Below, one piece after another: positions 27,862 through 62,174 of a DNA stretch of 64,000 bases; the stretch's first letter is position 1, and every line of letters begins with the position of its first letter. Origin of the DNA: Bacillota bacterium (GTDB lineage Bacteria; Bacillota; Clostridia; Christensenellales; SZUA-584); the NCBI GenBank assembly GCA_023408075.1, contig JAEYKW010000015.1, positions 319,170-383,169 on the forward strand. Direction: 5' to 3'. Below the pieces are notes generated by a model. The model saw only the letters and a list, made by a program, of their open reading frames with translations. It ran no database searches and was not told where the DNA came from. The translations under genes and the position numbers were made by a program.

Positions 27862-27911
27862 GCCTGGTGACCCACCGGAGATTCGAACTCCGGACACCTT
27901 GATTAAAAGTC
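27862..27911. repeat. Prophage attachment site, left copy (orphan 3' fragment of tRNA-Lys)
   Basis: 50/50 identical to 62096..62145. It contains the T-arm, acceptor 3' strand and CCA but no 5' half, so it is not a functional tRNA. Confidence 0.9.
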
Positions 27912-47941: not shown

Positions 47942-48214
47942 TTAATCTGTCAACGGGTCTTTTCGTTCCATGAACCAGCGGTCTTCTTCAAGCCACAGAA
48001 ACGTTTGGTGCCCTTTCACCATGCAGGTATAGCGAGTGCCAATACCACCTGCCTTGAGCGATACTGCCCGGCATACATCAACGACTGAATCAATCTCATA
48101 CCGCCGCCCGCTTTCCCACCAAAATGCAACGGGTTCTATTTGCCCATTCGGAAAATATATCGCTTCGACCTTGACATACACCTTATATTTGTTTTCGTAC
48201 CGTCTTTCTATCAT
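47942..48214 (-). CDS. Hypothetical protein translationally coupled to the Y-family polymerase
   Basis: 4-nt ATGA-type overlap with the polymerase stop. 90 aa. Confidence 0.55.
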   Translation of the reverse strand: MIERRYENKYKVYVKVEAIYFPNGQIEPVAFWWESGRRYEIDSVVDVCRAVSLKAGGIGTRYTCMVKGHQTFLWLEEDRWFMERKDPLTD

Positions 48215-49458
48215 TGCACCATACCATCCTTAAAAAAGCCCACGGGATGTATGATGTGATCTCCTTTGGGGTTGATGCCTCCGAGAGGTTTGTCAGCCAG
48301 CATGCATGCGCGCTGCAGTGTAAAATGCCCGAAGCGGCGCCGTATCTCATCCACGGCGATGTCGAGCGCTTCGTATTTTTCACGCTGCCGCTCGTCGCTG
48401 AACACCGAAAGCTGCTGCGGTATGGAAGCGGGTATAAGATCAGTACAGCGCACGCCTAGGCTGCGGATAGGGCGCGGCCAGTTGTAATGCGCCACGAAAA
48501 GACGCATCGCCGCATCCGCGATCTCACCCGTTATGTGTGACGGGCGGGACAGCTTGCACTGGCGCTCAAAGCGGAAAAGCTCGTTGTCGCGAATGGATAT
48601 CGCCACGGTGCGGCATACAAAGCCGTGCTCACGCAGACGCGCACAGACACTTTCGCAGAGTACGAACAACGTGACCTTCACGTCCTCATTGCATGTTAAA
48701 TCGCGCGGGGTCGTGGTGCTGTTGCCGATGGATTTGATCATTGATTCCTCATCCATCTGCATCACGGGGGAATTGTCGAAGCCGTTCGCAAAGGAATAAA
48801 GAACGTCGCCCACTTTGCCGAAAATGCCATGCAGCAGCGAGAGTGGCGTGGCAGCCAGCTGGCCGATGGTGGTGATTCCTAAGCGCACGAGTTTACCCTT
48901 GGTGGCGCGGCCCACATAAAGGAGCTCATCCACGGGCAGCGGCCACGCGACGGATTTGTAATTGTCTCTGCTGATCAGTGTGGTGGCATCCGGCTTTTTG
49001 ATATCAGAACCGAGCTTGGCAAATATCTTGTTGTAGCTGACGCCCACAGATGCCGTGACGCCGAGCTCTCGTGTCACGCGGGCCCGTATCTCGTTGGCGA
49101 TGTGTACGCCATCTTCACCGCTCACGTCGAGCCATGCTTCGTCGAGGCCGAACGGCTCAATCTGCGAGGTGTAGTCAGCGTAGATACTGCGGGCGAGCTT
49201 TGCGTAACGCAGGTAAAGTGGATAATTCGGAGGCAGCACGATGAGACCCTGGCATTTTTCTCGTGCCTGCCAAAGCGCCTCGCCTGTCTTTATGCCGGTC
49301 GCTTTAGCGATATAATTTTTTGCCAACACTATGCCGTGCCGCAGTTCCTCGTCGCCGCCGACAACAACCGGATTGCCCCGGATTTCAGGCCGGTGCACGC
49401 ACTCCACGGACGCGTAAAAGTTATTCATATCGCTGTGTAAAATGACCCGCTGCTTCAT
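48211..49458 (-). CDS. Y-family (DinB/UmuC-like) translesion DNA polymerase
   Basis: ILHSDMNNFYASVE, FGLDEAWLDVSG and SVGVSYNKIFAKLGSD motifs. Confidence 0.9.
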   Translation of the reverse strand: MKQRVILHSDMNNFYASVECVHRPEIRGNPVVVGGDEELRHGIVLAKNYIAKATGIKTGEALWQAREKCQGLIVLPPNYPLYLRYAKLARSIYADYTSQIEPFGLDEAWLDVSGEDGVHIANEIRARVTRELGVTASVGVSYNKIFAKLGSDIKKPDATTLISRDNYKSVAWPLPVDELLYVGRATKGKLVRLGITTIGQLAATPLSLLHGIFGKVGDVLYSFANGFDNSPVMQMDEESMIKSIGNSTTTPRDLTCNEDVKVTLFVLCESVCARLREHGFVCRTVAISIRDNELFRFERQCKLSRPSHITGEIADAAMRLFVAHYNWPRPIRSLGVRCTDLIPASIPQQLSVFSDERQREKYEALDIAVDEIRRRFGHFTLQRACMLADKPLGGINPKGDHIIHPVGFFKDGMVQ

Positions 49459-51315: not shown

Positions 51316-52086
51316 TTAAACATCCCGGCTATATCTGCTCGACTGCTGTTCGCCTGCCTGCTGCCCGCCGCTGGGCGATGCGCGGCCCTTGAGCTTGTCC
51401 CAGATGATGCCTTGGTAATTGCAAGCCATGCACTCATCGATCAGCGTGATAATATCGCTCTCCTGATAGACGGCAAGCTTGTTCTTAACGCCTGACAGAA
51501 ACGCCTTAAGGCCCGTGGCTTTGTACGATTCCCGCCGCTCACGCTTATAGGCGAGCCACTCATCAAGCTTTGACCGTATGGCAAGCGAGAAATCGTAACC
51601 GGCGTATAGGTCCCCCGGTTCAGCCGCAGGCTTCCCGTGCGCGGGCGTTGGATTTGGATTCGGATTCGGATTGGATTCGGATTGGATTGGATTAAGGCCG
51701 CCAGCCGCCGCATCTTGCGGCGAATCGCCGCGACTTTCCGCGAGCTCGTCAAAATCGTCTGGTGGAGCAGGATATTTCGCCTTAGAGTCACGAACCCTTT
51801 GATGCAAACCCCACTTAGGAAACAACAGGAACGGTTTCCCGTCTACTTCGTAGAACCTGACCAATCCTATTAACGCCAATCGGGAGACGGCATCTGATAC
51901 GTTCTTCTCGGTGATTCCCTGCTTTGTCACAAACAGCTTCGATTTCAAAAAACCCGGTCGCGCGTCGATACGGCCGTAATCATCAACATTGACGATCAGC
52001 CGGCAAAATACGGTCTCCTCAAAGGGCGTCAGCTGATCGATGTCGGCGCTATAGCATATGGATTCCTTAATCACACGGTTTCCCAT
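51316..52086 (-). CDS. Phage replisome organizer / DnaD-like replication initiation protein
   Basis: N-terminal LTPFEETVFCRLIVNVDDYGRIDARPGFLKSKLF is the replisome-organizer N-domain as I recall it. C-terminal DnaD-like region. Confidence 0.7.
   Translation of the reverse strand: MGNRVIKESICYSADIDQLTPFEETVFCRLIVNVDDYGRIDARPGFLKSKLFVTKQGITEKNVSDAVSRLALIGLVRFYEVDGKPFLLFPKWGLHQRVRDSKAKYPAPPDDFDELAESRGDSPQDAAAGGLNPIQSESNPNPNPNPTPAHGKPAAEPGDLYAGYDFSLAIRSKLDEWLAYKRERRESYKATGLKAFLSGVKNKLAVYQESDIITLIDECMACNYQGIIWDKLKGRASPSGGQQAGEQQSSRYSRDV
51650..51693. repeat. Eight closely spaced GGATT pentamers (spacing 5-6 nt) inside the replisome-organizer gene; candidate origin iterons
   Basis: GGATT starts at 51650, 51656, 51662, 51668, 51673, 51679, 51684 and 51689. 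On the minus strand this encodes NPIQSESNPNPNPNPT. Confidence 0.45.
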
Positions 52087-52459
52087 TTATTGACCTCATA
52101 AATTTATCCGTTTCTTATGCTGCCCTGCATAGCCTTGGCATTTCTCCATATAATAAAGCCAAATTACATATGTAGGAGGTGATTGCGTCGTGCGAATTAT
52201 ATTCGCAAAAACTATAATTATCGTCCTACCTTAAACAGGACCTTAAGCCCTATAGTGCAAACGCACTATAGGTGCGCAAACATTTATTTTAAAAAATCTT
52301 GTCTAACACCAAAACATAATCGCATATTAATAAATCTCACATCGACTTGCAATGATTGTCGTTTTAGATTTAAATACTGTTCTTCTATTGAAATGTTGTT
52401 TTTAACTTTGATGCACGGCGACCCCAGCCCCACCGAAGCCGCCGCGACTAAATAATTTT

Positions 52460-52768
52460 TTAAGCAGTCTCTTTCATGACATCTTTGCCGCTTTCATTAA
52501 GACTCGCACGAATTATTCCGTTTATTTCGTCACAAAGATCAGGAATGATTTCTTCAATAGTAAAAAGGCAATCTATTGCAATTTGAGTTATTGTTTTATA
52601 GTGCATGAATTCATTGAATACCTTAGAAGATACGCCATCTTGAGAATAGCGCTCAAAATAGCCATCTTGAAGCGTTTTAACCAAAGCAGTAACTTTCTTA
52701 AGATTGTCTCCAATCTCCTTAAAAATCAGATCTCCGACCTTCTCTTCCAAACCCTCAAGTTGGTTCAT
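52460..52768 (-). CDS. Hypothetical helical protein (AT-rich)
   Basis: 102 aa with no recognisable motif. Confidence 0.45.
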   Translation of the reverse strand: MNQLEGLEEKVGDLIFKEIGDNLKKVTALVKTLQDGYFERYSQDGVSSKVFNEFMHYKTITQIAIDCLFTIEEIIPDLCDEINGIIRASLNESGKDVMKETA

Positions 52769-52872
52769 AACTGACCTCCAAATAATTTGATGTGAGTCTT
52801 ATTTCTGATTGAGACGCGCGGCGTCGATATGCTTGGTGCCACCGCCACGCGACCCGATTTCAATCCATTGAT

Positions 52873-53418
52873 TTATGCAACGGTATCTATTTTTAAACCA
52901 TCGCATAGTTCGCGCTGAGTTGCGGCCGCGATCAACCCCGAACATTCCTCTTTCAGAAGCTCTATATCATATGACGACAGCACAAAACGATAAAATGTCT
53001 TATCATACAAAGCGCTGTAGCTTTCGCGTATTTCTTGCCTTTTAAAGAGCTCAAATGTCATTTTCGGATCAGGCACGTTATCTCCAAAAATCGCCTTCAT
53101 AAGCTGCCACCAAAACAAAGCGAACATCTGATATATTTGTTCATGTTCGGACTTGGGCGACTCTTTAATCATTCTGGTTAATAACTCATCAGCGGTAGGC
53201 AACGGCTGGAATAAAAGAAAATCAGTTGTTACCTTTAAAAAGTCAGCCAGCTTTATAACCCTCTCTAATCTAAAATTTCTTGTGCCCTTCTCATAGGCCG
53301 CATATGCCTTCGTTGGAATGCCAAGATGAACGGCTACATCTTTTTGCGTGTATCCCCTTTGTTCTCTTAATCGTACAAGGCTCTTCTTTAATTCGGGTTT
53401 CTTAGTTTGAGTTGACAT
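52873..53418 (-). CDS. XRE-family HTH protein with an uncharacterised C-terminal domain (early lytic operon)
   Basis: LVRLREQRGYTQKDVAVHLGIPTKAYAAYEKGTRNFRLERVIKLADFLKVTTDFLL. Confidence 0.7.
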   Translation of the reverse strand: MSTQTKKPELKKSLVRLREQRGYTQKDVAVHLGIPTKAYAAYEKGTRNFRLERVIKLADFLKVTTDFLLFQPLPTADELLTRMIKESPKSEHEQIYQMFALFWWQLMKAIFGDNVPDPKMTFELFKRQEIRESYSALYDKTFYRFVLSSYDIELLKEECSGLIAAATQRELCDGLKIDTVA

Positions 53419-53778
53419 GGTTATATCCTCCTAAAGTATATTTGTAACAGTATCTACAATCTTCCTACCTAACCTTATTATTTTTTCCACTTTGTATACT
53501 GTTTAAACCCTCCATATATGGCTTCTCTCCGATACAAGTAATCAATATCATTTTACTGACTTCTTTGATTCTATCAGTAACTTCATTTTCTAGCGGCTCA
53601 AATTATGGGTACTTTACCGGCATAACAGCTCGCTTTATGGTTTTGCAGAGCATGAGTTCTTATGACTTTTACATTCGCTCGAAGAAGTCAAGCTTATGTT
53701 GCTAGAACATTTTACTTCAACCAAAATCCACAAAAAAATCGATGACATGGAGGGCCACTAATGAACGTATCCACACTT

Positions 53779-53970
53779 TTATGCTTCTTTCCTCTGCTGA
53801 TCCTGTAGCCATTTTTCGAACGCTTCTCGGGTCACTAGAAGTCGTTTTCCAATTCTGAACGAAGGGAACCCCTGTGAGTGAAAGAGACTATTTGCACCCA
53901 CGGGGCTAATACCAAGATACCCTGAAACATCAGCGACTGAATATGTTTGCTTATCAACAGCCTTTTTCAT
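53779..53970 (-). CDS. xis: Excisionase-type HTH DNA-binding protein
   Basis: YSVADVSGYLGISPVGANSLFHSQGFPSFRIGKRLLVTREAFEKWL matches the HTH_17/excisionase pattern. Confidence 0.65.
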   Translation of the reverse strand: MKKAVDKQTYSVADVSGYLGISPVGANSLFHSQGFPSFRIGKRLLVTREAFEKWLQDQQRKEA

Positions 53971-54011
53971 TGTGACCTCCGATTTTCTGAAGTGCGCAGT
54001 TCCGTTTGGTG

Positions 54012-54242
54012 TTATCTTTTTATATATAATGGTTCCGTTTGATCGCTGCTTTCAAGAAATAAATATGTAATACTCAGATGCGGAAAACATTTATTGCGTA
54101 TATTAAGCATTTCGTTTCGTGTAAAATCCGTCTTTCCAGAGAGTTTGCTGCGAAGTGTGTTATACTTAATATCCGCTATTTTCGATAGGGTTAAAATATC
54201 ATATCCACTTCGGCCCATTTCGGCCTTTAAATTGTTGAACAT
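54012..54242 (-). CDS. Cro-like early regulator
   Basis: 76-aa HTH-like protein (ILTLSKIADIKYNTLRSKLSGKTDFTRNEMLNI). Divergent from the repressor gene. AGGAGG RBS. Confidence 0.6.
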   Translation of the reverse strand: MFNNLKAEMGRSGYDILTLSKIADIKYNTLRSKLSGKTDFTRNEMLNIRNKCFPHLSITYLFLESSDQTEPLYIKR

Positions 54243-54253
54243 GCCTTTTCCTC

Positions 54254-54342
54254 CTATGATGTGTCGTATTTATAATGAATTTTATTCTACACATCATATA
54301 TTGTCAATACCAAATGACAAAAAAAATACGATGCATCATATA
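54254..54342. promoter_or_regulatory. Lysis-lysogeny switch: three copies of an ACAYATCATAT-like operator motif plus divergent promoters
   Basis: O1 at 54254-54266 (inverted: acgACACATCATA), O2 at 54287-54300 (tACACATCATATAT), O3 at 54328-54342 (acgATGCATCATATA). Leftward promoter TTGACA (54307-54302)-18-TAAAAT with O2 in its spacer. Rightward extended -10 TGGTATAAT at 54368-54376. Confidence 0.55.
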
Positions 54343-54406
54343 TTTGTGTGTTTAATCACACTATTTGTGGTATAATTTAAATATAAGAATACGAAGGGGA
54401 TAGTTT

Positions 54407-54835
54407 ATGGATTTTATTGAAAAACTAAATGCCTTGTTAAAAGAGAAGGGTATCAGTCGTGCCGAACTAGCTAAAAATGCAGATATTCCATATACCACTA
54501 TCGTGAGTCTATATGAAAAGGGTTATCAGAATGTCAAACTCTCTACTTTACGTCGGCTCGCATCCTACTTTAGGTGTAGCCTAGATTATCTTACAGATGA
54601 TTCTATATCAGACAGATACTTCGGTGTTACAGCTGACTATGCAAATGGAAGAACGAAACATAAGAATGCCATTATTTTAGAAGGTGATTTGCTCCCACCT
54701 GAACTTCAAGGTCTTGATATTAAACTTGAAGTTATTAAAGCTGTCGCTGATAGCGGGCTGAACGAGAAGGAAATAAAACTCGCTTTAAAACTCTATAAAC
54801 TGTACTCAGAGGATTACACCGATGACCACAAATAA
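54407..54835 (+). CDS. CI-like prophage repressor (XRE HTH, no S24 autopeptidase domain)
   Basis: KGISRAELAKNADIPYTTIVSLYEKGYQNVKLSTLRRLASYFRCSLDYL. 142 aa. Divergent from cro. Confidence 0.75.
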   Translation: MDFIEKLNALLKEKGISRAELAKNADIPYTTIVSLYEKGYQNVKLSTLRRLASYFRCSLDYLTDDSISDRYFGVTADYANGRTKHKNAIILEGDLLPPELQGLDIKLEVIKAVADSGLNEKEIKLALKLYKLYSEDYTDDHK

Positions 54836-55247
54836 TAATTGATTTTATTTTCACAGTCTACGCTCCTTTTTTAAGAAAGCTCACATCTAAATCGCTGAAT
54901 ATATATTAACAACTTCTAGGTGTTCATGTCTCTCTAATCATTATATCAAAAAGCTAAGTCGCACTACTATTAAGTTTAACTCTTTTTAAATTTCAATCTA
55001 CACATCAAATTAATCATCACTTTTTCGACTCAAAAGCATTATACCACTAAATTTGAACTCACTACTGCAATCTTTCTTACCTTCACTTCGCTATTTATTA
55101 ATTTGTCAATACCTAAAATAAAATTCTTATTGATGTAATACTTCTTTGCTGTTATGATGGTAACACAAGAAAACTTAACATGTCAATAAACGGAAACATT
55201 TGCATTTGAATCGCAAGAATGCATAACATTCATATCGAGGTAGAATA

Positions 55248-55955
55248 ATGAGTGTAAAAAAAGCAGATGAAAATAATTACAATAAAGCTTTTCCATCAAG
55301 ACTCAGGGCTTTATTAGACAATGAAAATCAAATTAGTCCTCTTGGAAAGAAAGTTACTCAAGTAGAACTTGCCCAGGCTTTTCATGACAATGGGATACCT
55401 GTAACTCGGCAAACAATAAGCTTATATGCTAATGGCAATACTACACCGGACATTGAGAAGTTCAAATTTATTGCGGACTATTTCAAAGTATCATATGACT
55501 TTTTACTTGGTGTTTCTGAAGCTACGAGTAGAGATAACGTGCAAATAAATAAAGAACTTGGATTATCCGAAAAAGCTATAAATGAGCTTAAGAAAATTAA
55601 AGATATGGGAAAAGACGGTCAAGCTATGCCAAGAGATATAAATTTTATATTTCAAACAATTGATTTTTTGATATCAGAAAACTGGTTCTTTATTGTTTCA
55701 CCTGTCGCCCGTTATGCCCTTACTTTATCAAAAATAAAAAAAGAAGTGAGGAACGAAGAAGAAAAAGGGAAGAAATTATATGTTGATTCATATAAATTAC
55801 CCACTGAATTAAGTCCCCATCTTAGATTTATCGAATGGGAAATGGTGGAGATGATACGCGACACTACAAAAAAACTAGCAGAAAAACTAAGTGATAAATT
55901 TGATACGGATGGATTACAGGAAAAAATCGATTCAGATTTAAATCAGTGGTTGTAA
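55248..55955 (+). CDS. XRE-family HTH protein with a ~150-aa uncharacterised C-terminal domain
   Basis: KVTQVELAQAFHDNGIPVTRQTISLYANGNTTPDIEKFKFIADYFKVSYDFLLG. Candidate promoter TTGATG-17-TATGAT roughly 90 bp upstream. Confidence 0.7.
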   Translation: MSVKKADENNYNKAFPSRLRALLDNENQISPLGKKVTQVELAQAFHDNGIPVTRQTISLYANGNTTPDIEKFKFIADYFKVSYDFLLGVSEATSRDNVQINKELGLSEKAINELKKIKDMGKDGQAMPRDINFIFQTIDFLISENWFFIVSPVARYALTLSKIKKEVRNEEEKGKKLYVDSYKLPTELSPHLRFIEWEMVEMIRDTTKKLAEKLSDKFDTDGLQEKIDSDLNQWL

Positions 55956-56185
55956 ATGAAAAGCCGCTTAAGGATGAAAGCGGCCTTGGCGGAATGCGCC
56001 ATCTCTGGTAGGCAAATGAATCTTGGGCTATTGGCCCTCCGTAATTTAGGAGGGCCTTTTTTATTCTGCTATAATTAGCATATGCAGGAATTAGCGACAA
56101 TCTGTCGAAATAAGCAAAATAAGGTTGCGCATCATAAGCACTTTCATCTTTGCCTCTCAGCCCACCGCACTCATGGAGGTTAATT

Positions 56186-56662
56186 ATGAAAAGAATCTTA
56201 GCCATTATCCTTGTATGCTTCTTAGCGATCTCTTTTATAGCTTGCAGCCAATCATCAGCCCCAGATGAAAAAACACTGGCAAAAGCAAAAAGTTCTGTTT
56301 CCTCTCTTGTTAAAGATAGCACGGCGGAACCGACACAAAAACAGGCTATCATATCAACCGCCACGCCATCACCGGAACCGACGCTGGAGCCTACGCCGGA
56401 GCCGACTCCATCTCCCACGCCCGAGCCAACGCTGAAGCCCACCAAAGCACCAACGCCCGAGCCCACAATCGAGCCGACACCGGAACCCGAGCCAGCTGTC
56501 GTTGACGAGCCGAAGTCTGACGCCATTTACATCACAAAGACAGGTGAAAAATATCATCTGAGCGGGTGCCAGTATTTGAAGAAAAGCAAGATACCCATAT
56601 CGCTTGCCGATGCCAAAGCACAAGGATATACGCCTTGTTCAAAGTGTAACCCGCCGCAATAA
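56186..56662 (+). CDS. Prophage lipoprotein: Pro/Thr-rich linker plus a C-terminal Cys-rich (YH..C...C..C) small domain
   Basis: GGAGG RBS. Signal with lipobox ISFIAC. Linker PSPEPTLEPTPEPTPSPTPEPTLKPTKAPTPEPTIEPTPEPEP. C-terminus YITKTGEKYHLSGCQYLKKSKIPISLADAKAQGYTPCSKCNPP. Confidence 0.7.
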   Translation: MKRILAIILVCFLAISFIACSQSSAPDEKTLAKAKSSVSSLVKDSTAEPTQKQAIISTATPSPEPTLEPTPEPTPSPTPEPTLKPTKAPTPEPTIEPTPEPEPAVVDEPKSDAIYITKTGEKYHLSGCQYLKKSKIPISLADAKAQGYTPCSKCNPPQ

Positions 56663-56674
56663 GGAGCAATTATT

Positions 56675-56887
56675 ATGGCAAATAGGGGCGGCCTTTCGTG
56701 GAAGCGCGCGCTGGGCGTTACCAAGGCCAAACAGAGCATATCCCGGGCAACGGGCATTCCTATGACGAAGTCCGGGCGGCAGAGAAAAATCGGGAAAGCC
56801 GTAACCGGTGGCGGCTGCCTGATGACTCTATTAGGCTTATCCGTTCCCGTTATTTTGGTTGTCACGGCTCTGATTATATTGATTTAA
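56675..56887 (+). CDS. Tail-anchored small membrane protein with a basic N-terminus
   Basis: 12-nt gap after the lipoprotein gene. MANRGGLSWKRALGVTKAKQSISRATGIPMTKSGRQRKIGK, then one TM (LMTLLGLSVPVILVVTALIILI). Confidence 0.55.
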   Translation: MANRGGLSWKRALGVTKAKQSISRATGIPMTKSGRQRKIGKAVTGGGCLMTLLGLSVPVILVVTALIILI

Positions 56888-56975
56888 TATTCCCTGCAGC
56901 AGAACCGGACCGACGATTATACATAATATCAGCTGTTATCTACACCAAATTCACAATAAAAAACAGGAGGATATC

Positions 56976-57719
56976 ATGAATAAAAAACGAGTATTAGTAG
57001 TGTCACCCTTTGAAGATTTGCATCAAGAGAGAAAGATCATATCCGAAAGCCTGCAGCAGTCATCTGATTCTTTAATAGTTGAAAACTGTTCAGTTGTAAA
57101 TACAATCAGATTCAAGAAAAAAAGTGTTTTCATCTTGATATGTGATCAAAACATTAATGAAATTGAATCCCTCGAGGTATTTAAGCGTGCAAGACGAAAA
57201 CTTAATCGAATAATTATATTGGCAAAAGGTAGTTGCGCCGATCTTTATGATATTAGGCAAAAAGCCTCAATTGTCCAATGGAACAACATTAGCGATTTAG
57301 GGTGGTCGTTAGTAAAATATTTCGAGAGTGTTTTTTACTCATGGAAATGCGATAAGGTCGTAAGAAATACATTTTTACAATTCACGATAATAAGTTTGCT
57401 ATTAGTTCCGCTGTATGTACTATTTCCTGAATTTTTTATGAATTACTTTAATTCTTATAAACTTAGAATATCCCTTTTGTCTATTTGTTTATTATTGCTT
57501 ATTTATAATATACTTAGAGAAGGAATTATTTATCGGGCTGAAAATATACGCCCGGAAAGCAGAGCTCGGTTCTTTAAACCACTAATTAGAGATTTGATTT
57601 TGATTTGTGCTATTCTATTTTTGTCTATTTTGGTGACGGATGATATCGGCACATTTTTAATCTTTATTGCGCCGATGATTATTTCAGGATTAATTTCGGT
57701 TATTATAAAAGGACGCTGA
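56976..57719 (+). CDS. TIR-like/DUF4062-like N-terminal domain fused to a four-TM C-terminal domain (candidate abortive-infection effector)
   Basis: AGGAGGATATC-ATG. The N-terminus RVLVVSPFEDLHQERKIISESL...SVFILICDQ resembles the VFxSSxFxDLxxER signature I associate with DUF4062. Four hydrophobic helices lie between roughly aa 133 and 245. Confidence 0.5.
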   Translation: MNKKRVLVVSPFEDLHQERKIISESLQQSSDSLIVENCSVVNTIRFKKKSVFILICDQNINEIESLEVFKRARRKLNRIIILAKGSCADLYDIRQKASIVQWNNISDLGWSLVKYFESVFYSWKCDKVVRNTFLQFTIISLLLVPLYVLFPEFFMNYFNSYKLRISLLSICLLLLIYNILREGIIYRAENIRPESRARFFKPLIRDLILICAILFLSILVTDDIGTFLIFIAPMIISGLISVIIKGR

Positions 57720-57908
57720 AAAAGTTTCCAAGAAAAGTACGAAAGAATATCTTACGCCGTTAACCACACGAGGCCATCCATCAGAAGAAGCTCCGGATTC
57801 AAGATTGGCAATAAGCAGATTTATAAGGGGGATTGACTGGGGGAGTGTATTTTATTTGCGTTTTGCGTGTCAAAAACAAAACTCGCTTTTTCAAGTGGTG
57901 TATTCTGC

Positions 57909-57937
57909 TTGTATTTTTTATACCAATGGTGTAAAAT
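57909..57937 (+). promoter_or_regulatory. Candidate sigma-A promoter TTGTAT-17-TAAAAT for the 57971 operon
   Basis: TTGTAT at 57909-57914, a 17-nt spacer, then TAAAAT at 57932-57937, 33 nt upstream of the ATG. Confidence 0.4.
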
Positions 57938-57970
57938 ACAATTGAAATACAGTGATTCGAGGTGTTTTTT

Positions 57971-58603
57971 ATGGAAATATCGCCCCTAGAGAGTCTTGAA
58001 AACAGATTCCCTGTCCTTTTACCTTCAATAAACGGAGCTATTGATGAATCATACTCTGAAGTGGAAATGATGCTGACGACTGATCGATGCAAAAAACCTT
58101 GCTGGCGTGACTACATCCCAAAATTCTTATATTCCGCTGTGCAAACAAATGTGTGCGACAAGATCAATTTACTGGGGATCCCTGATCTTCGGGCCGAAAT
58201 GAAACTTAACAGTCGGCACAACCTCAATCATGTTGAAATCTATGGTCCCGATTTTGTGATGACGATATCTTCTGCAGACGGAGATAAAAAACCAAGACCT
58301 GCCGTTTATAGAGATGAACTCTCAACCGGAGGACAAATAAATTGGTTCCGAGAGTTTAGTGAAAACGATGACGAAGATAAACAGGTTTATTTCACAATCA
58401 CGCATCAGATTAATAAGGACGAGTTGCAAGCTGATGATATAAGAATTATTTTAATGTCATCGTCTTTATGGAGCGAGACTATTAACGAAAGTATACGAGA
58501 TCGTCAAATGCCTATTGAAAATATTACACAGACAAGCACACCGGTTGCGAAGGAAGAGACGATCACCAAGCCCGTAATGCCGGAATTGAAAATAACAAAT
58601 TAA
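57971..58603 (+). CDS. Uncharacterised 210-aa protein (candidate toxin/effector partner of the XRE-M78 protein)
   Basis: GAGGTG RBS then ATG 57971 (MEISPLESLENRF...). I recognise no motif. 40-nt gap to the next gene. Confidence 0.55.
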   Translation: MEISPLESLENRFPVLLPSINGAIDESYSEVEMMLTTDRCKKPCWRDYIPKFLYSAVQTNVCDKINLLGIPDLRAEMKLNSRHNLNHVEIYGPDFVMTISSADGDKKPRPAVYRDELSTGGQINWFREFSENDDEDKQVYFTITHQINKDELQADDIRIILMSSSLWSETINESIRDRQMPIENITQTSTPVAKEETITKPVMPELKITN

Positions 58604-58643
58604 GGTTTAAGCCTTAAATTTAATAAAAAGGAGATGATATGCC

Positions 58644-59786
58644 GTGTCTAGAAGTGATGCATTATTTATTGGACACCGTTTGACAGAGGCACGCGAAGTT
58701 AGAGGTACCACAAAGCAAGAATTAGCAGATTTATTGGGTAAGACTCACCAAACAGTTACCTCATATGAAAATGGATCGTACAATCCGGCACCTGAAGTAA
58801 TCGATGATATTTGTCGTATTCTAAAGTTGCCTTTGTCTTTTTTTACAATCGACAGAACCGACAGCTTAATCAATGCCCCGATTCAATTTCGAAGTTTAAA
58901 AAGCGCACACAAGGTCAAAAAACTTCAGATTGAAAGATGGCTTCAGTGGGTGGCAAATCGTGTTGGATACTATAAACAATACATGGACTTCCCTCCGGTA
59001 AACTTACCAAAATTCGATCTTGATTTTGGTAAACTCAGTGAATCTCAGATAGAAAATATAGCAGAAAGCGTGCGGAAGTTTTGGGGGTTAGGTAACGGTC
59101 CCATAAGCAATTTAACTCTGCTTCTCGAAAACAACGGTATTATTGTTACTCATTATAACTTCGAAGTAAAAGGTTTAGATGCTTGTTCGACGATCGCTAA
59201 TGGATTACCGCTAATACTAATCAACACTTTTGAAGCCACGTGCTCAAGGATCCTTATGGATTTAGCACATGAGCTCGGACATCTCGTTTTGCATGCCGAT
59301 GTTGATAAAGACGAGATAACCCCTGCTCAGCATAAACAAATGGAAGATCAGGCATGGGATTTTGCTGCTGCATTTTTAATGCCTGCTGATGGCTTTTCTT
59401 GCGAAGTCGTAGACACTAGGCTCACAGCTTTTGCTCTTTTAAAACGAAGGTGGCGCGTCTCGATAGCTGGGATGATTATGCGATGCCGTGAATTGTGTAT
59501 AATTGATGATTTCCGAAAAACGTATTTGTTTAAGGAAATGAACAGAAGAAAGATACGTTTAGTCGAACCCCTTGATAACGAATTAAAGATTGAAACTCCA
59601 CATCTTCTTATTGATGCAGAAAAGCTACTAACAGAGTCCGGTGAGTTAACAAAGTGGTATCTTTTAGACGCGTCCTATATTTCAGCTGATGATTATTGCA
59701 GCATTGTCGGAACTCCGACTGACTATTTTAAACGAGAAACGGTTCAACCGAAGTTAAGGCCAGATTACATTAGAATCGTAAAATAA
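58644..59786 (+). CDS. XRE-HTH :: ImmA/IrrE (peptidase M78) fusion protein
   Basis: N-terminal HTH (TTKQELADLLGKTHQTVTSYENGSYNPAPEVIDDICRILKL). M78 motifs LAHELGHLVLH and EDQAWDFAAAFLMPADGF. AGGAG RBS. Confidence 0.85.
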   Translation: MSRSDALFIGHRLTEAREVRGTTKQELADLLGKTHQTVTSYENGSYNPAPEVIDDICRILKLPLSFFTIDRTDSLINAPIQFRSLKSAHKVKKLQIERWLQWVANRVGYYKQYMDFPPVNLPKFDLDFGKLSESQIENIAESVRKFWGLGNGPISNLTLLLENNGIIVTHYNFEVKGLDACSTIANGLPLILINTFEATCSRILMDLAHELGHLVLHADVDKDEITPAQHKQMEDQAWDFAAAFLMPADGFSCEVVDTRLTAFALLKRRWRVSIAGMIMRCRELCIIDDFRKTYLFKEMNRRKIRLVEPLDNELKIETPHLLIDAEKLLTESGELTKWYLLDASYISADDYCSIVGTPTDYFKRETVQPKLRPDYIRIVK

Positions 59787-59803: not shown

Positions 59804-60817
59804 ATGGATGATAATAAAGGCAGGATCATTCTCTATCAAACCGAGGATGGCCGGACGAAGATCGATGTCAGAATGGATAACGAAACAGTATGGCTCTCGC
59901 TCGATCAATTGGCTGATCTGTTTCAGCGCGATAAATCTACGATCTCGAGGCATATAAAAAACATCTTTGAAGAGGGCGAGCTTTCTATGCAATCAGTTGT
60001 TGCAACTTTTGCAACAACTGCTGCTGATAAAAAAACATATCAAGTCACTTATTATAGCCTCGATGCCGTGATCGCAGTTGGCTACCGAGTGAAATCGCAC
60101 AGAGGCACACAGTTCAGGATTTGGGCGACTGAGCGCCTAAAGGAATACCTCGTTAAGGGCTTCACAATGAACGACGACCTGCTTAAAAAGGCGGGTGGCG
60201 GTGATTATTTTGAAGAACTCCTTGAGCGCATCCGGGATATCCGATCTTCGGAGAAGGTGTTTTATCGCAAGATACTCGACATCTACGCGACCAGCGTCGA
60301 TTATGACCCGAGAGCCGACATATCCCAGACGTTCTTTAAAACCATACAGAACAAAATGCATTGGGCCGCTCACGGTCACACAGCAGCCGAAGTTGTATTC
60401 TTAAGAGCTGATGCCGTCAAGCCTTTTATGGGCATGACGTCTTTTCAAGGAAGCAAGCCAACGAAAGCAGAAAGCACCATCGCCAAGAATTATTTGACCG
60501 GTGAAGAGTTAAATATCTTAAACCGCATTGTGAACGCCTATCTGGAATTTGCAGAGTTGCAGGCCATTCGCCGCAACACGATGGCCATGCACGAATGGAT
60601 ATTAAAGCTGGATGACTTTCTCAAAATGACGGACAGCAACATTCTCACGCACTCAGGAAGCGTCTCTCATAAAGACGCCGAGATAAAAGCGGTGCAAGAA
60701 TACGAAAAATATAAAAGGCTGCACCAGGACAAGCTTTCACCGGTGGAACAGCACTTTTTAGAGAGCATCGAAAAAACCAAAAAGCTACTTGATAAAAAAG
60801 ATAAGAAGGACAAATAA
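59804..60817 (+). CDS. RhuM-family (COG3943-like) protein
   Basis: ILYQTEDGRTKIDVRMDNETVWLSLDQLADLFQRDKSTISRHIKNIFEEGEL... and AVGYRVKSHRGTQFRIWATERLKEYLVKGF are characteristic of the RhuM family. Confidence 0.8.
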   Translation: MDDNKGRIILYQTEDGRTKIDVRMDNETVWLSLDQLADLFQRDKSTISRHIKNIFEEGELSMQSVVATFATTAADKKTYQVTYYSLDAVIAVGYRVKSHRGTQFRIWATERLKEYLVKGFTMNDDLLKKAGGGDYFEELLERIRDIRSSEKVFYRKILDIYATSVDYDPRADISQTFFKTIQNKMHWAAHGHTAAEVVFLRADAVKPFMGMTSFQGSKPTKAESTIAKNYLTGEELNILNRIVNAYLEFAELQAIRRNTMAMHEWILKLDDFLKMTDSNILTHSGSVSHKDAEIKAVQEYEKYKRLHQDKLSPVEQHFLESIEKTKKLLDKKDKKDK

Positions 60818-60843: not shown

Positions 60844-62016
60844 ATGCCACGTGAAGCAAAGATAAAAAAGCGCCCTGACGGCTTCTATCAGCGATCAATC
60901 ACCGTGGGCCGCCGCCCGGACGGAAAACCGCAGCGCAAAACCATATACGCCAAAACACTCAAGGAGCTCGAGGCCAAGGCTGCCGAGTTTGAAAGACAAC
61001 TTCTTCACGGTACACTCTCCAGTGATGAAAAGATGACTTTCGGTGAGCTGGCTGCGGTGTGGCTCCGGGATTATAAACCGGGCATCAGTATCACCACGCG
61101 CACCATGTACAAAAGGGTGCTGGATACCCACCTGCTGCCGGAGCTGGCCGTATATAAGCTGAAGGATCTCAAACCCCATCATCTACAGACCATCATCAAT
61201 CGCATGGCTGAGAGCGGCAAAGCAGAGAGCACAATGCGAAAGGTTAAGTTGACCGCCGCCCAAATCCTTCAGATCGCCATGGATAACGATATTCTTTACC
61301 GCAACGTATTTTCAAAAGTCAATGTCCCGGATGTGCCTGCCGCCAAGCGCCGCCCGCTGACAGACGAAGAGGTCAAGCTTGTGGTAGATACTCATACCGG
61401 CCACCGCATGGGCGTGCCCGTGCTGCTGCTGCTGTATTGTGGGCTGCGCCGTGGCGAGCTGCTCGCGCTCACATGGAATGATATTGATCTGAAAAACAAA
61501 ACTGTTACTGTCAACAAGGCGGCAGTATTCGATGTGAATATCACGCTGATGCAGACCCCCAAGTCGGCCGCAGGCGTTCGAACGGTCCCGCTGCCCGATA
61601 ATGTCTTGGAGGCCGTCAGCGCCGCCAGAAAGGCCGCACAATCGACAATGGTCTGCCCTGCAACGGATGGCCGCATTATGTCGGCTTCAGCCCTTACTAA
61701 GGCTTGGAGTAGCTATCTACACTATCTCAACATTAAAGCCGGTGGTCGTGACGCATCACGGACCCGCCCCAAACTCTCGGTGATCGACAACCTGACTCCG
61801 CATATGTTCAGGCATACATACGCCACCATTCTTTATAACGCCGGTGTCGATGTGAAGAGCGCGCAGCGGTTTCTCGGGCATGCCGATATCAATGTCACGC
61901 TTAAGATATACACCCATCTTTCAGCCCAAAAAGAGCAGGAAGCTATCGACTCATTGAACCGTCATTTAAGCAGTAATGAAACACGAAAAAATTCTGATGC
62001 AGTAAAAATGCAGTAA
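60844..62016 (+). CDS. int: Tyrosine-type site-specific integrase
   Basis: N-terminal SAM-like/arm-binding region. Catalytic motifs GLRRGELLAL, HMFRHTYAT, LGHADINVTLKIYTH. Confidence 0.9.
   Translation: MPREAKIKKRPDGFYQRSITVGRRPDGKPQRKTIYAKTLKELEAKAAEFERQLLHGTLSSDEKMTFGELAAVWLRDYKPGISITTRTMYKRVLDTHLLPELAVYKLKDLKPHHLQTIINRMAESGKAESTMRKVKLTAAQILQIAMDNDILYRNVFSKVNVPDVPAAKRRPLTDEEVKLVVDTHTGHRMGVPVLLLLYCGLRRGELLALTWNDIDLKNKTVTVNKAAVFDVNITLMQTPKSAAGVRTVPLPDNVLEAVSAARKAAQSTMVCPATDGRIMSASALTKAWSSYLHYLNIKAGGRDASRTRPKLSVIDNLTPHMFRHTYATILYNAGVDVKSAQRFLGHADINVTLKIYTHLSAQKEQEAIDSLNRHLSSNETRKNSDAVKMQ
61992..62016. repeat. 25-bp direct repeat TTCTGATGCAGTAAAAATGCAGTAA, right copy (overlaps the last integrase codons)
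   Basis: Identical to 28034..28058. It lies 79 bp from the right att copy. Confidence 0.5.
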
Positions 62017-62095: not shown

Positions 62096-62145
62096 GCCTG
62101 GTGACCCACCGGAGATTCGAACTCCGGACACCTTGATTAAAAGTC
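62096..62145. repeat. Prophage attachment site, right copy (supplies the 3' 47 nt of the intact tRNA-Lys)
   Basis: 50/50 identity with 27862..27911. Confidence 0.9.
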
Positions 62146-62174
62146 AAGTGCTCTACCGCCTGAGCTAGTGGGTC
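62099..62174 (-). tRNA. tRNA-Lys (anticodon UUU), CCA encoded
   Basis: Hand-folded cloverleaf: acceptor GACCCAC/GTGGGTC, anticodon arm CTTGA-CTTTTAA-TCAAG, T-arm CGGAG-TTCGAAT-CTCCG. 76 nt. Confidence 0.9.

What the first reader, a model, noticed from the sequence alone, without database searches (positions are those of the whole stretch)
56976..57719. Single-gene candidate effector: TIR-like/DUF4062-like domain fused to four transmembrane helices
- The first ~120 aa begin K-R-V-L-V-V-S-P-F-E-D-L-H-Q-E-R-K-I-I and later contain S-V-F-I-L-I-C-D.
- This resembles the V-F-x-S-S-x-F-x-D-L-x-x-E-R ... D-x-F-I-x-I signature I associate with DUF4062. That is a Rossmann-like domain of the TIR / nucleoside-deoxyribosyltransferase type often found at the N-terminus of conflict-system proteins.
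- The C-terminal half (about aa 133-245) is four strongly hydrophobic helices.
- A sensor/NADase-like domain wired directly to a membrane-spanning module is the logic of several abortive-infection effectors, such as TIR-TM or SIR2-TM effectors of CBASS, Pycsar and Thoeris-type systems. Here it stands alone, with its own strong RBS, in a prophage cargo slot.
- I do not recall a described stand-alone system with this architecture.
Basis: inference. Interest (0 to 1): 0.7.

Follow-up and report, generated by a model that had tools for sequence, protein, structure and literature searches.

The report
Orphan prophage membrane protein, not demonstrably TIR-like
A real but completely orphan prophage gene encodes a membrane protein with a small cytoplasmic head and four membrane helices, sitting beside known anti-phage genes; the proposed TIR/DUF4062 (NAD-destroying) identity of the head rests only on a 25-residue motif and fails every other test.

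Summary
Window 56976-57719 (+) is a 247-aa ORF with an AGGAGG ribosome-binding site. It has a roughly 130-aa soluble N-terminal part and four hydrophobic helices (aa ~132-152, 163-184, 203-221, 225-244), with loop charges fitting an N-in/C-in topology.

It lies in the integrase-proximal cargo region of a 34.3-kb prophage (att repeats at 27862 and 62096, tRNA-Lys). A Rosmer toxin-antitoxin pair and a RhuM/PDC-S05 gene lie directly downstream. Its GC content is 32%, against 50% for the window.

- Pfam, PADLOC, PHROGs, NCBIfam and PDB sequence searches give nothing.
- Searches of 5.8 billion and 1.84 billion proteins, and of phage, plasmid, genome, viral and metagenome DNA, find only the gene itself.
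- A profile built from 119 genuine DUF4062 proteins aligns only residues 2-26, in register, at 6.5-7.9 bits. That is unusual against shuffles.
- The published DUF4062 hallmarks are absent: the aromatic F11, the catalytic Glu-Tyr in the SYT block, and the Q/W/E motif. hhalign probability is 7%.
- AlphaFold models have low confidence and Foldseek finds no TIR fold.

Most likely this is a lysogen-expressed membrane phage-exclusion factor. That function is inferred from architecture and context only. Interest is modest.

The parts
56965..56970 (+). Shine-Dalgarno sequence AGGAGG, 5 nt upstream of the ATG
   Evidence: Read directly from the sequence
56976..57719 (+). Candidate CDS, 247 aa plus stop. 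It is an orphan gene with 31.9% GC.
   Evidence: Only self-hits.
56979..57053 (+). aa 2-26 (NKKRVLVVSPFEDLHQERKIISESL). This is the only stretch that aligns to a DUF4062 profile, covering beta-A/alpha-A in register.
   Evidence: hmmsearch gives 6.5-7.9 bits.
56976..57365 (+). Soluble N-terminal domain (aa 1-130), predicted cytoplasmic, with alternating beta/alpha secondary structure. The fold is unresolved.
   Evidence: No family hit. No fold match.
57369..57431 (+). TM helix 1 (aa ~132-152)
   Evidence: Kyte-Doolittle peak 2.11. Helix in the AlphaFold model.
57462..57527 (+). TM helix 2 (aa ~163-184)
   Evidence: Kyte-Doolittle peak 1.98. Helix in the AlphaFold model.
57582..57638 (+). TM helix 3 (aa ~203-221), preceded by an Arg/Lys-rich cytoplasmic loop (aa 185-202)
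   Evidence: Kyte-Doolittle peak 2.48. Loop charges.
57648..57707 (+). TM helix 4 (aa ~225-244), followed by the C-terminal KGR
   Evidence: Kyte-Doolittle peak 2.54. Charges.
57962..59786 (+). Context: Rosmer toxin-antitoxin defence pair, RmrT-like 57962/57971-58603 and RmrA 58644-59786. It is a separate module, not part of the candidate.
   Evidence: PADLOC RmrT 5.9e-15 and RmrA 1.1e-106. The homologous pair in L003 has no upstream TM gene. An inverted repeat at 57899-57951 lies upstream of RmrT.
59804..60817 (+). Context: RhuM-family / PDC-S05 defence-candidate gene
   Evidence: Pfam PF13310 4.7e-108. PADLOC PDC-S05 6e-161.
60844..62016 (+). Context: prophage tyrosine integrase
   Evidence: Pfam Phage_integrase 1.2e-29
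62096..62145 (.). Context: attR. It is a 50-bp exact direct repeat of 27862-27911 (attL) and overlaps tRNA-Lys (62099-62174, minus strand). It bounds a 34.3-kb prophage that contains the candidate.
   Evidence: Structural genes.

Best explanation
The gene is a horizontally acquired orphan gene (a moron, i.e. an added cargo gene) in the integrase-proximal cargo and defence region of a 34-kb temperate prophage.

It encodes an inner-membrane protein. A cytoplasmic alpha/beta domain of about 125 aa is followed by a four-helix membrane bundle, with both termini on the inside.

Its most likely role is phage exclusion expressed from the lysogen. In this model the cytoplasmic head senses or binds something during infection, or mediates oligomerisation. 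The 4-TM module then acts on the membrane, either by depolarisation or leakage (abortive infection) or by blocking superinfection. The logic resembles lambda RexA/RexB fused into one chain.

The head is not a demonstrable DUF4062/TIR NADase. At most it is a degenerate relative that keeps the beta-A/alpha-A motif but has lost the catalytic residues.

Shown: the gene is real, the architecture and topology pattern, the orphan status, the prophage and defence-island context, and independence from Rosmer. Inferred: expression in the lysogen, any defence function, and the membrane mechanism.
For: - **Real gene with a strong ribosome-binding site**.
- **Soluble N-half plus four hydrophobic helices**, with a positive-inside pattern.
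- **Inside a prophage** bounded by 50-bp att repeats at tRNA-Lys, with terminase, portal, capsid, tape-measure and endolysin genes.
- **Defence neighbourhood.** It lies on the same strand as Rosmer RmrT/RmrA, RhuM/PDC-S05 and the integrase, and immediately upstream of them. This is the lysogeny-side cargo region.
- **Separate acquisition.** Its GC is 31.9%, against 50-53% for the two genes upstream, 40% for Rosmer and 49.7% for the window.
- **Independent of Rosmer.** A homologous Rosmer pair elsewhere has no such upstream gene. An inverted repeat in front of RmrT suggests Rosmer has its own operator.
- **No match to any known family or structure**.
Against: - There is no functional evidence of any kind.
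- There are no homologues, so there is no conservation, no co-occurrence statistics and no covariation.
- Guilt by association in a cargo slot is weak. Many prophage morons are not defence genes.
- No convincing promoter or terminator delimits the gene. Scan hits are no more frequent than in shuffles.
- The membrane helices show no obvious polar, pore-lining face.
- The hydrophobicity is partly compositional.
Confidence: 0.4

Rival explanations
1. The N-domain is a TIR-like/DUF4062 NADase (or nucleotide-processing enzyme) fused to a membrane module, forming a single-gene abortive-infection effector that depletes NAD+ and/or permeabilises the membrane.
For: - Residues 2-26 align in register to beta-A/alpha-A of a profile built from 119 PF13271 proteins, with S10, F12, D14, L15, E18 and R19 matching the consensus.
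- Only 14 of 20,000 shuffles reach the same whole-sequence score. Only 1 shuffle used that part of the profile, and none was in register.
- It is the best-scoring of 266 ORFs in the window, at 6.0 bits against 2.9 for the next.
- Predicted secondary structure alternates beta and alpha.
- DUF4062 is now known as a defence NADase carried on mobile elements.
Against: - Pfam PF13271 and all TIR models give no hit at E<=10. PADLOC gives none.
- The profile match stops at position 26 of 139. hhalign gives 7% probability, P=0.005.
- The published hallmarks are missing. Eva01 F11 aligns to Leu7. The acidic-SYT block with catalytic Glu-Tyr falls in a gap, and there is no E-Y dipeptide in the domain. 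The alpha-B Q/W/E motif region is deleted, with only about 20 residues between alpha-A and the VFILICD strand.
- Genuine members recognise each other easily: Eva01 against KpSwz gives 1e-21.
- None of 120 DUF4062 proteins has a TM segment.
- Foldseek finds no TIR fold, although the models are poor.
Confidence: 0.1
2. A prophage-carried membrane protein with a non-defence role. Possibilities include a lysogenic-conversion or host-fitness factor, a membrane-anchored regulator, an immunity protein, or a membrane toxin kept in check by another element.
For: - It has the same orphan status and cargo position as many uncharacterised morons.
- It matches no defence-family model.
- The upstream genes in the slot, a lipoprotein-like protein and a small tail-anchored protein, are also envelope proteins of unknown role.
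Against: - Its immediate neighbours on the same strand are recognised defence or defence-candidate genes.
- A very low GC relative to the host, together with orphan status, is typical of abortive-infection-type cargo. This is established knowledge for lactococcal abi genes and was not tested here.
Confidence: 0.3
3. An accessory third component of the adjacent Rosmer (RmrT/RmrA) system, for example a second toxin or effector controlled by the RmrA HTH-peptidase antitoxin.
For: - It lies on the same strand, 242 nt upstream of RmrT, with no strong terminator between them.
- Both have lower GC than the prophage backbone.
Against: - The only detectable homologous Rosmer pair (RmrT 35% identity, RmrA 50% identity) follows two recombinase genes directly, with no such gene.
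- The candidate matches no RmrT or RmrA model.
- GC differs, 32% against 40%.
- An inverted repeat just upstream of RmrT suggests Rosmer has its own operator and promoter.
Confidence: 0.07
4. A decaying or non-functional ORF. It would be the remnant of a foreign gene that is kept only because the prophage is recent.
For: - It is seen only as one identical sequence on 3-4 contigs.
- It has no relatives in about 15 billion proteins.
Against: - The 247-codon frame is intact in AT-rich DNA, where shuffles reach at most 181 codons.
- It has a consensus Shine-Dalgarno sequence at ideal spacing.
- It has a coherent two-domain organisation with a positive-inside topology.
Confidence: 0.08

Closest known systems
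DUF4062 / PF13271 TIR-like NADases (Evangelion Eva01, Swarozyc KpSwz, human TEP1 TIR-like domain)
   Same: - An N-terminal domain begins with a hydrophobic strand followed by S-x-[FY]-x-D-L-x-x-E-R. The candidate's residues 2-26 align in register.
- Both are single-gene, carried on a mobile element, with a conserved head plus a variable C-terminal region.
   Different: - No Pfam hit.
- Only 25 of about 139 profile positions align.
- Eva01 F11 is replaced by Leu.
- The catalytic Glu-Tyr/SYT block and the Q/W/E motif are absent.
- The domain is about 125 aa and appears to lack alpha-B.
- The C-terminus is four TM helices. None of 120 real members has any.
Lambda RexA/RexB and other prophage abortive-infection or exclusion membrane proteins (comparison from general knowledge)
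   Same: - Encoded on a prophage on the lysogeny side.
- A four-helix membrane module that could collapse membrane potential.
- A cytoplasmic part that could act as the sensor.
   Different: - No sequence similarity to any phage genome in six frames at E<=1.
- Sensor and membrane parts would be fused in one chain.
- The function is untested.
TM effectors of signalling defence systems (CBASS Cap14/Cap15 and S-4TM, Pycsar PycTM, type II Thoeris TM-Macro ThsA, SLATT)
   Same: The architecture is a small cytoplasmic domain joined to TM helices. This is the logic of a ligand-gated membrane effector.
   Different: - There is no adjacent cyclase, CD-NTase or TIR signal producer. The neighbours are a lipoprotein-like gene, a small TM ORF, Rosmer and RhuM.
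- There is no Pfam or PADLOC hit to S_4TM, SLATT, SAVED, cNMP-binding or Macro models.
Rosmer (RmrT/RmrA) toxin-antitoxin defence
   Same: It is the immediate downstream neighbour on the same strand.
   Different: - The candidate matches neither component.
- The homologous Rosmer locus lacks it.

Membership tests
DUF4062 (PF13271; Evangelion / Swarozyc / NIR) | Match to the Pfam PF13271 model at or near its gathering score | tested here: not met
   There is no PF13271 hit at E<=1 on the full protein. There is none at E<=10 on aa 1-130 or aa 1-110.
DUF4062 (PF13271; Evangelion / Swarozyc / NIR) | Alignment across the whole core domain of about 130 aa to a family profile | tested here: not met
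   A profile of 119 PF13271 proteins aligns only HMM positions 2-26 to residues 2-26, at 6.5-7.9 bits. hhalign local gives P=0.0048 and 7.4% probability; hhalign global gives nothing.
DUF4062 (PF13271; Evangelion / Swarozyc / NIR) | N-terminal beta-A/alpha-A motif (hydrophobic strand, then S-S-T-[YF]-x-D-L-x-x-E-R) | tested here: met
   VLVVSPFEDLHQER aligns in register. Of 20,000 shuffles, 14 reach 7.9 bits and none gives an in-register match of at least 6.5 bits. It scores 6.0 bits, top of 266 window ORFs.
DUF4062 (PF13271; Evangelion / Swarozyc / NIR) | Conserved aromatic core residue (Eva01 F11 in beta-A) | tested here: not met
   The motif is defined and the Eva01 sequence is. In the profile alignment, F11 corresponds to Leu7 of the candidate.
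DUF4062 (PF13271; Evangelion / Swarozyc / NIR) | Acidic-SYT block with the catalytic Glu-Tyr (Eva01 E87-Y88; TEP1 E1008) | tested here: not met
   The SYTE-EY block falls in a gap of the hhalign alignment. The N-domain has no E-Y dipeptide. E62, E64 and E67 at the start of the next helix could be positional analogues, but this is unproven.
DUF4062 (PF13271; Evangelion / Swarozyc / NIR) | Q/W/E motif in alpha-B | tested here: not met
   Only about 20 residues separate alpha-A from the VFILICD strand, and hhalign places gaps there. The sole Q-W (aa 101-102) lies elsewhere in the domain.
TIR-like / flavodoxin-like fold | Three-layer alpha/beta fold with a parallel sheet, shown by a confident model or structure match | tested here: inconclusive
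   - Single-sequence AlphaFold gives pLDDT 47.7 for the full length and 57.1 (pTM 0.46) for the N-domain.
- The best Foldseek E-value is about 0.06 and TM-scores are at most 0.40. The hits are ferredoxin-like and none is TIR.
- The models are too poor to decide either way.
TIR-like NADase | NAD+ hydrolysis | not testable with these tools
   This needs biochemistry.
CBASS / Pycsar / Thoeris TM effectors | Adjacent signal-producing enzyme (CD-NTase, pyrimidine cyclase or ThsB TIR) and a recognised ligand-binding or TM effector domain | tested here: not met
   The neighbours are a lipoprotein-like ORF, a 70-aa TM ORF, RmrT, RmrA, RhuM and the integrase. The candidate has no Pfam or PADLOC effector-domain hit.
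Rosmer (RmrT/RmrA) | Match to RmrT or RmrA models, or conserved co-occurrence with the pair | tested here: not met
   The candidate has no PADLOC hit. The homologous pair in L003 has no such upstream gene.
Prophage abortive-infection / superinfection-exclusion membrane proteins (functional class, not a homology family) | Protection of the lysogen against other phages, acting through the membrane | not testable with these tools
   Only context is available: a prophage cargo slot beside defence genes. There is no similarity to any phage-encoded protein in six frames.

The most novel reading that the evidence does not exclude
The gene founds an unrecognised single-gene, membrane-acting abortive-infection system. 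Its cytoplasmic head would be an extremely diverged, catalytically dead descendant of the DUF4062/TIR-like fold, keeping only the beta-A/alpha-A motif. That head would have been repurposed as a sensor or oligomerisation switch that gates a four-helix pore. This would be the first link between the DUF4062 lineage and membrane effectors.
Probability: 0.08. Interest if true: 0.6.

Novelty: new member of a known kind. Interest (0 to 1): 0.3.

Why it matters
If the gene does protect the lysogen, it would add a sequence-orphan, single-gene membrane effector to the anti-phage repertoire. It would also show that cargo slots next to known systems (Rosmer, RhuM) are a productive place to look for defence genes that homology-based tools cannot see.

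If the N-terminal motif reflects true descent from DUF4062, it would extend that newly characterised NADase family to a non-catalytic, membrane-tethered form.

As it stands, this is one of many uncharacterised prophage orphan genes. It is a reasonable but not exceptional candidate for an expression-and-challenge screen.

Tried and rejected
1. **Family libraries.** Pfam, PADLOC, PHROGs and NCBIfam scans of the full protein, and Pfam on the isolated N-domain at E<=10, gave only noise such as Protein_K, CydS and a coiled coil.
2. **Homologue searches.** These covered 5.8 billion clustered proteins, exhaustive phmmer over 1.84 billion representatives, PDB sequences, six-frame phage and plasmid collections, and genome, viral and metagenome contig scans. 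Only the gene itself was found, so no alignment, conservation or neighbourhood survey was possible.
3. **AlphaFold** on the full protein and on aa 1-128 gave low confidence. **Foldseek** against PDB and BFVD gave no meaningful hits.
4. **Pairwise BLASTP against Eva01** gave nothing.
5. **Forcing a DUF4062 alignment onto the candidate for AlphaFold** was considered and rejected as circular.
6. **Response-regulator receiver, Toprim and PIN readings** of the N-domain were considered from the motif pattern. They were dropped because the sensitive Pfam models gave no hit.
7. **Three-gene Rosmer variant** was rejected on the L003 comparison, the GC difference and the inverted repeat.
8. **RNA elements and structured leaders or terminators** around the gene: no Rfam hits, and the downstream intergenic fold is no better than shuffles.
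9. **Related prophages via the integrase** were sought to compare slot contents. Only integrases of about 27% identity were found.
10. **The third DUF4062 preprint (NIR)** could not be fetched.
11. **Organism identity** could not be obtained, because names are masked for window proteins.

Full report

Yes. The ORF at 56976..57719 (+) encodes 247 aa and starts at the first start codon after the upstream stop. AGGAGG lies at 56965-56970, 5 nt before the ATG. An independent gene call on a Logan contig gives the same gene, and that contig is identical to the window over 15,150 bases.

The open frame is 272 codons in 32%-GC DNA. In 2000 shuffles of the region the longest ORF averaged 68 codons and never exceeded 181.

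Four strongly hydrophobic 19-residue windows (Kyte-Doolittle 1.9-2.5) lie at about aa 132-152, 163-184, 203-221 and 225-244, and none lies in aa 1-130. AlphaFold places four long helices there. Loop charges fit N-in/C-in: 5 K+R in loop 2, KGR at the C-terminus, and TDDIG in loop 3.

One caveat applies. The protein is hydrophobic overall, and 9% of whole-protein shuffles give four or more such windows. The meaningful signal is the sharp split into a soluble half and a hydrophobic half.

**2. Context**

The gene lies inside a 34.3-kb prophage. The prophage is bounded by a 50-bp exact direct repeat at 27862-27911 and 62096-62145, and the right copy overlaps tRNA-Lys.

The prophage gene order is:
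- endolysin, tail, tape-measure, capsid and portal genes;
- the large and small terminase subunits, a Y-family polymerase and a DnaC-like loader;
- several HTH regulators;
- a plus-strand cargo block.

The cargo block reads in this order:

| Coordinates | Gene |
|---|---|
| 56150-56662 | lipoprotein-like ORF |
| 56675-56887 | 70-aa tail-anchored ORF |
| 56976-57719 | the candidate |
| 57962-58603 | RmrT-like (PADLOC 5.9e-15) |
| 58644-59786 | RmrA (PADLOC 1.1e-106) |
| 59804-60817 | RhuM / PDC-S05 (PADLOC 6e-161) |
| 60844-62016 | integrase |

The candidate has 31.9% GC. The two upstream genes have 50-53%, Rosmer has 40%, and the window as a whole has 49.7%. This points to separate acquisition.

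**3. Is it part of Rosmer?**

Probably not. The only detectable related Rosmer pair is in a Eubacteriales MAG (locus L003), with RmrA at 50% identity and RmrT at 35% identity (E=6e-36). That pair follows two serine-recombinase genes directly, with no TM gene between.

An imperfect inverted repeat (57899-57917 / 57933-57951) lies just upstream of RmrT. It is a plausible operator for the HTH antitoxin. The candidate matches no Rmr model.

**4. Homology**

None was found.
- Pfam, PADLOC, PHROGs and NCBIfam give only noise.
- The word-indexed search of 5.8 billion proteins and the exhaustive phmmer over 1.84 billion representatives return only the protein itself.
- PDB sequences give nothing.
- Six-frame phage and plasmid searches give nothing.
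- Genome, viral and metagenome contig scans give nothing.

The identical sequence occurs on 3-4 contigs.

**5. Testing the DUF4062/TIR claim**

Preprints from 2026 establish DUF4062 as a TIR-like NADase used in single-gene defence (Evangelion, Swarozyc) and in human TEP1. Its hallmark motifs are an aromatic core residue (Eva01 F11), an acidic-SYT block with the catalytic Glu-Tyr (E87-Y88), and a Q/W/E motif (bioRxiv 10.64898/2026.06.25.731849 and 10.64898/2026.05.01.722283).

I fetched Eva01 from plasmid pMW2 and collected 119 usable PF13271 proteins. From these I built a domain profile.

With all HMMER filters off, the profile aligns only positions 2-26 to candidate residues 2-26, at 6.5-7.9 bits. 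As a directed test this is unusual:
- 14 of 20,000 shuffles reach 7.9 bits anywhere;
- only one shuffle hit uses that part of the profile, and none is in register;
- the candidate is the best of 266 ORFs in the window, at 6.0 bits against 2.9 for the next.

The match is short, however, and it was selected post hoc.

hhalign gives P=0.0048 and 7.4% probability. In its alignment the GxRYG...SYTE-EY catalytic block is a gap and the alpha-B region is deleted. Eva01 F11 corresponds to Leu7, and the domain contains no E-Y dipeptide.

True family members recognise each other easily: Eva01 against the solved KpSwz structure gives 1.3e-21. None of the 120 retrieved DUF4062 proteins has a TM segment. 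No held paper links DUF4062 with TM helices in bacteria.

**6. Structure**

With no homologues, only single-sequence AlphaFold was possible. The full protein gave pLDDT 47.7. Residues 1-128 gave pLDDT 57.1 and pTM 0.46, and only one of the five models reached that level.

Predicted secondary structure alternates strands and helices:
- strands at 5-10, 38-46, 49-56, 79-83 and 98-102;
- helices at 15-28, 60-75, 87-97 and 105-122.

This is compatible with a small alpha/beta domain. Strands 38-46 and 49-56 form a tight hairpin, which is atypical for a TIR or flavodoxin sheet.

Foldseek against PDB and BFVD gives no hit below E of about 0.06. TM-scores are at most 0.40, the hits are mostly ferredoxin-like, and none is a TIR. 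Because the models are poor, this result is inconclusive rather than refuting.

**7. Mechanism**

The shown facts support a lysogeny-side cargo gene that encodes an inner-membrane protein with a cytoplasmic head.

By analogy with prophage exclusion systems and with TM effectors of signalling defence systems (general knowledge), the most likely role is phage exclusion at the membrane, gated by the head. I give this 0.4. The rivals are:

| Rival | Confidence |
|---|---|
| Non-defence membrane moron | 0.3 |
| Non-functional remnant | 0.08 |
| Rosmer accessory component | 0.07 |

**8. Novelty and verdict**

The architecture and context claims are confirmed. The family assignment and the NADase mechanism are not supported.

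The protein is a sequence orphan. Conceptually it is one more uncharacterised prophage cargo membrane protein in a defence island. It is a sensible candidate for an expression-and-challenge assay, but a specialist would not be surprised by it. Interest is 0.3.

The most novel reading still open is a catalytically dead DUF4062 descendant that gates a 4-TM pore. I give that about 8%.

Noticed in passing
window 57962-59786: A complete Rosmer toxin-antitoxin defence pair: RmrT-like (PADLOC 5.9e-15) and RmrA HTH plus M78 peptidase (1.1e-106). Apart from PADLOC models, the RmrT has only one detectable relative (35% identity, in a Eubacteriales MAG).
   Followed up: partly
window 57899-57951: An imperfect inverted repeat (19-nt arms, 79% complementary, 15-nt spacer) lies just upstream of the RmrT start. 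It may be the operator for RmrA autoregulation.
   Followed up: no
window 59804-60817: A RhuM-family gene (Pfam 4.7e-108) matches the PADLOC defence candidate PDC-S05 (6e-161). It lies directly upstream of the integrase.
   Followed up: no
window 27862-27911 and 62096-62145: A 50-bp exact direct repeat overlaps the 3' end of tRNA-Lys(ttt) at 62099-62174 (minus strand). These are the attL and attR sites of a 34.3-kb prophage. A cluster of tRNA-Gln, tRNA-His and tRNA-Arg, and then recO, follow on the host side.
   Followed up: yes
window 56150-56887: A lipoprotein-like ORF has a signal peptide with a lipobox-like FIAC, a long Pro/Thr/Glu-rich linker and a C-terminal Cys-containing domain (phrog_14556, 1.9e-12). 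It is followed by a 70-aa basic ORF with a C-terminal TM anchor. Both have 50-53% GC, and they may be envelope or exclusion proteins of the prophage.
   Followed up: no
window 55864-56526 (minus strand): A 220-aa Gly/Ser/Val-rich antisense ORF is the reverse-complement shadow of the Pro/Thr-rich linker of the lipoprotein gene. A gene caller called it on L001, but it is probably spurious.
   Followed up: no
window 48211-49458 (minus strand): A Y-family (ImpB/MucB/UmuC-type) DNA polymerase is encoded within the prophage replication module.
   Followed up: no
window 52000-56000: The lysogeny-switch region has low GC (31-42%) and carries at least three separate HTH_3 regulators (52873-53418 on the minus strand, 54407-54835 and 55248-55955 on the plus strand). 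The composition is mosaic relative to the structural module, which is about 50% GC.
   Followed up: no
L003 2251-5138: In the Eubacteriales MAG, the related Rosmer pair lies immediately downstream of two tandem large serine recombinases. There it is carried by a different kind of mobile element.
   Followed up: no
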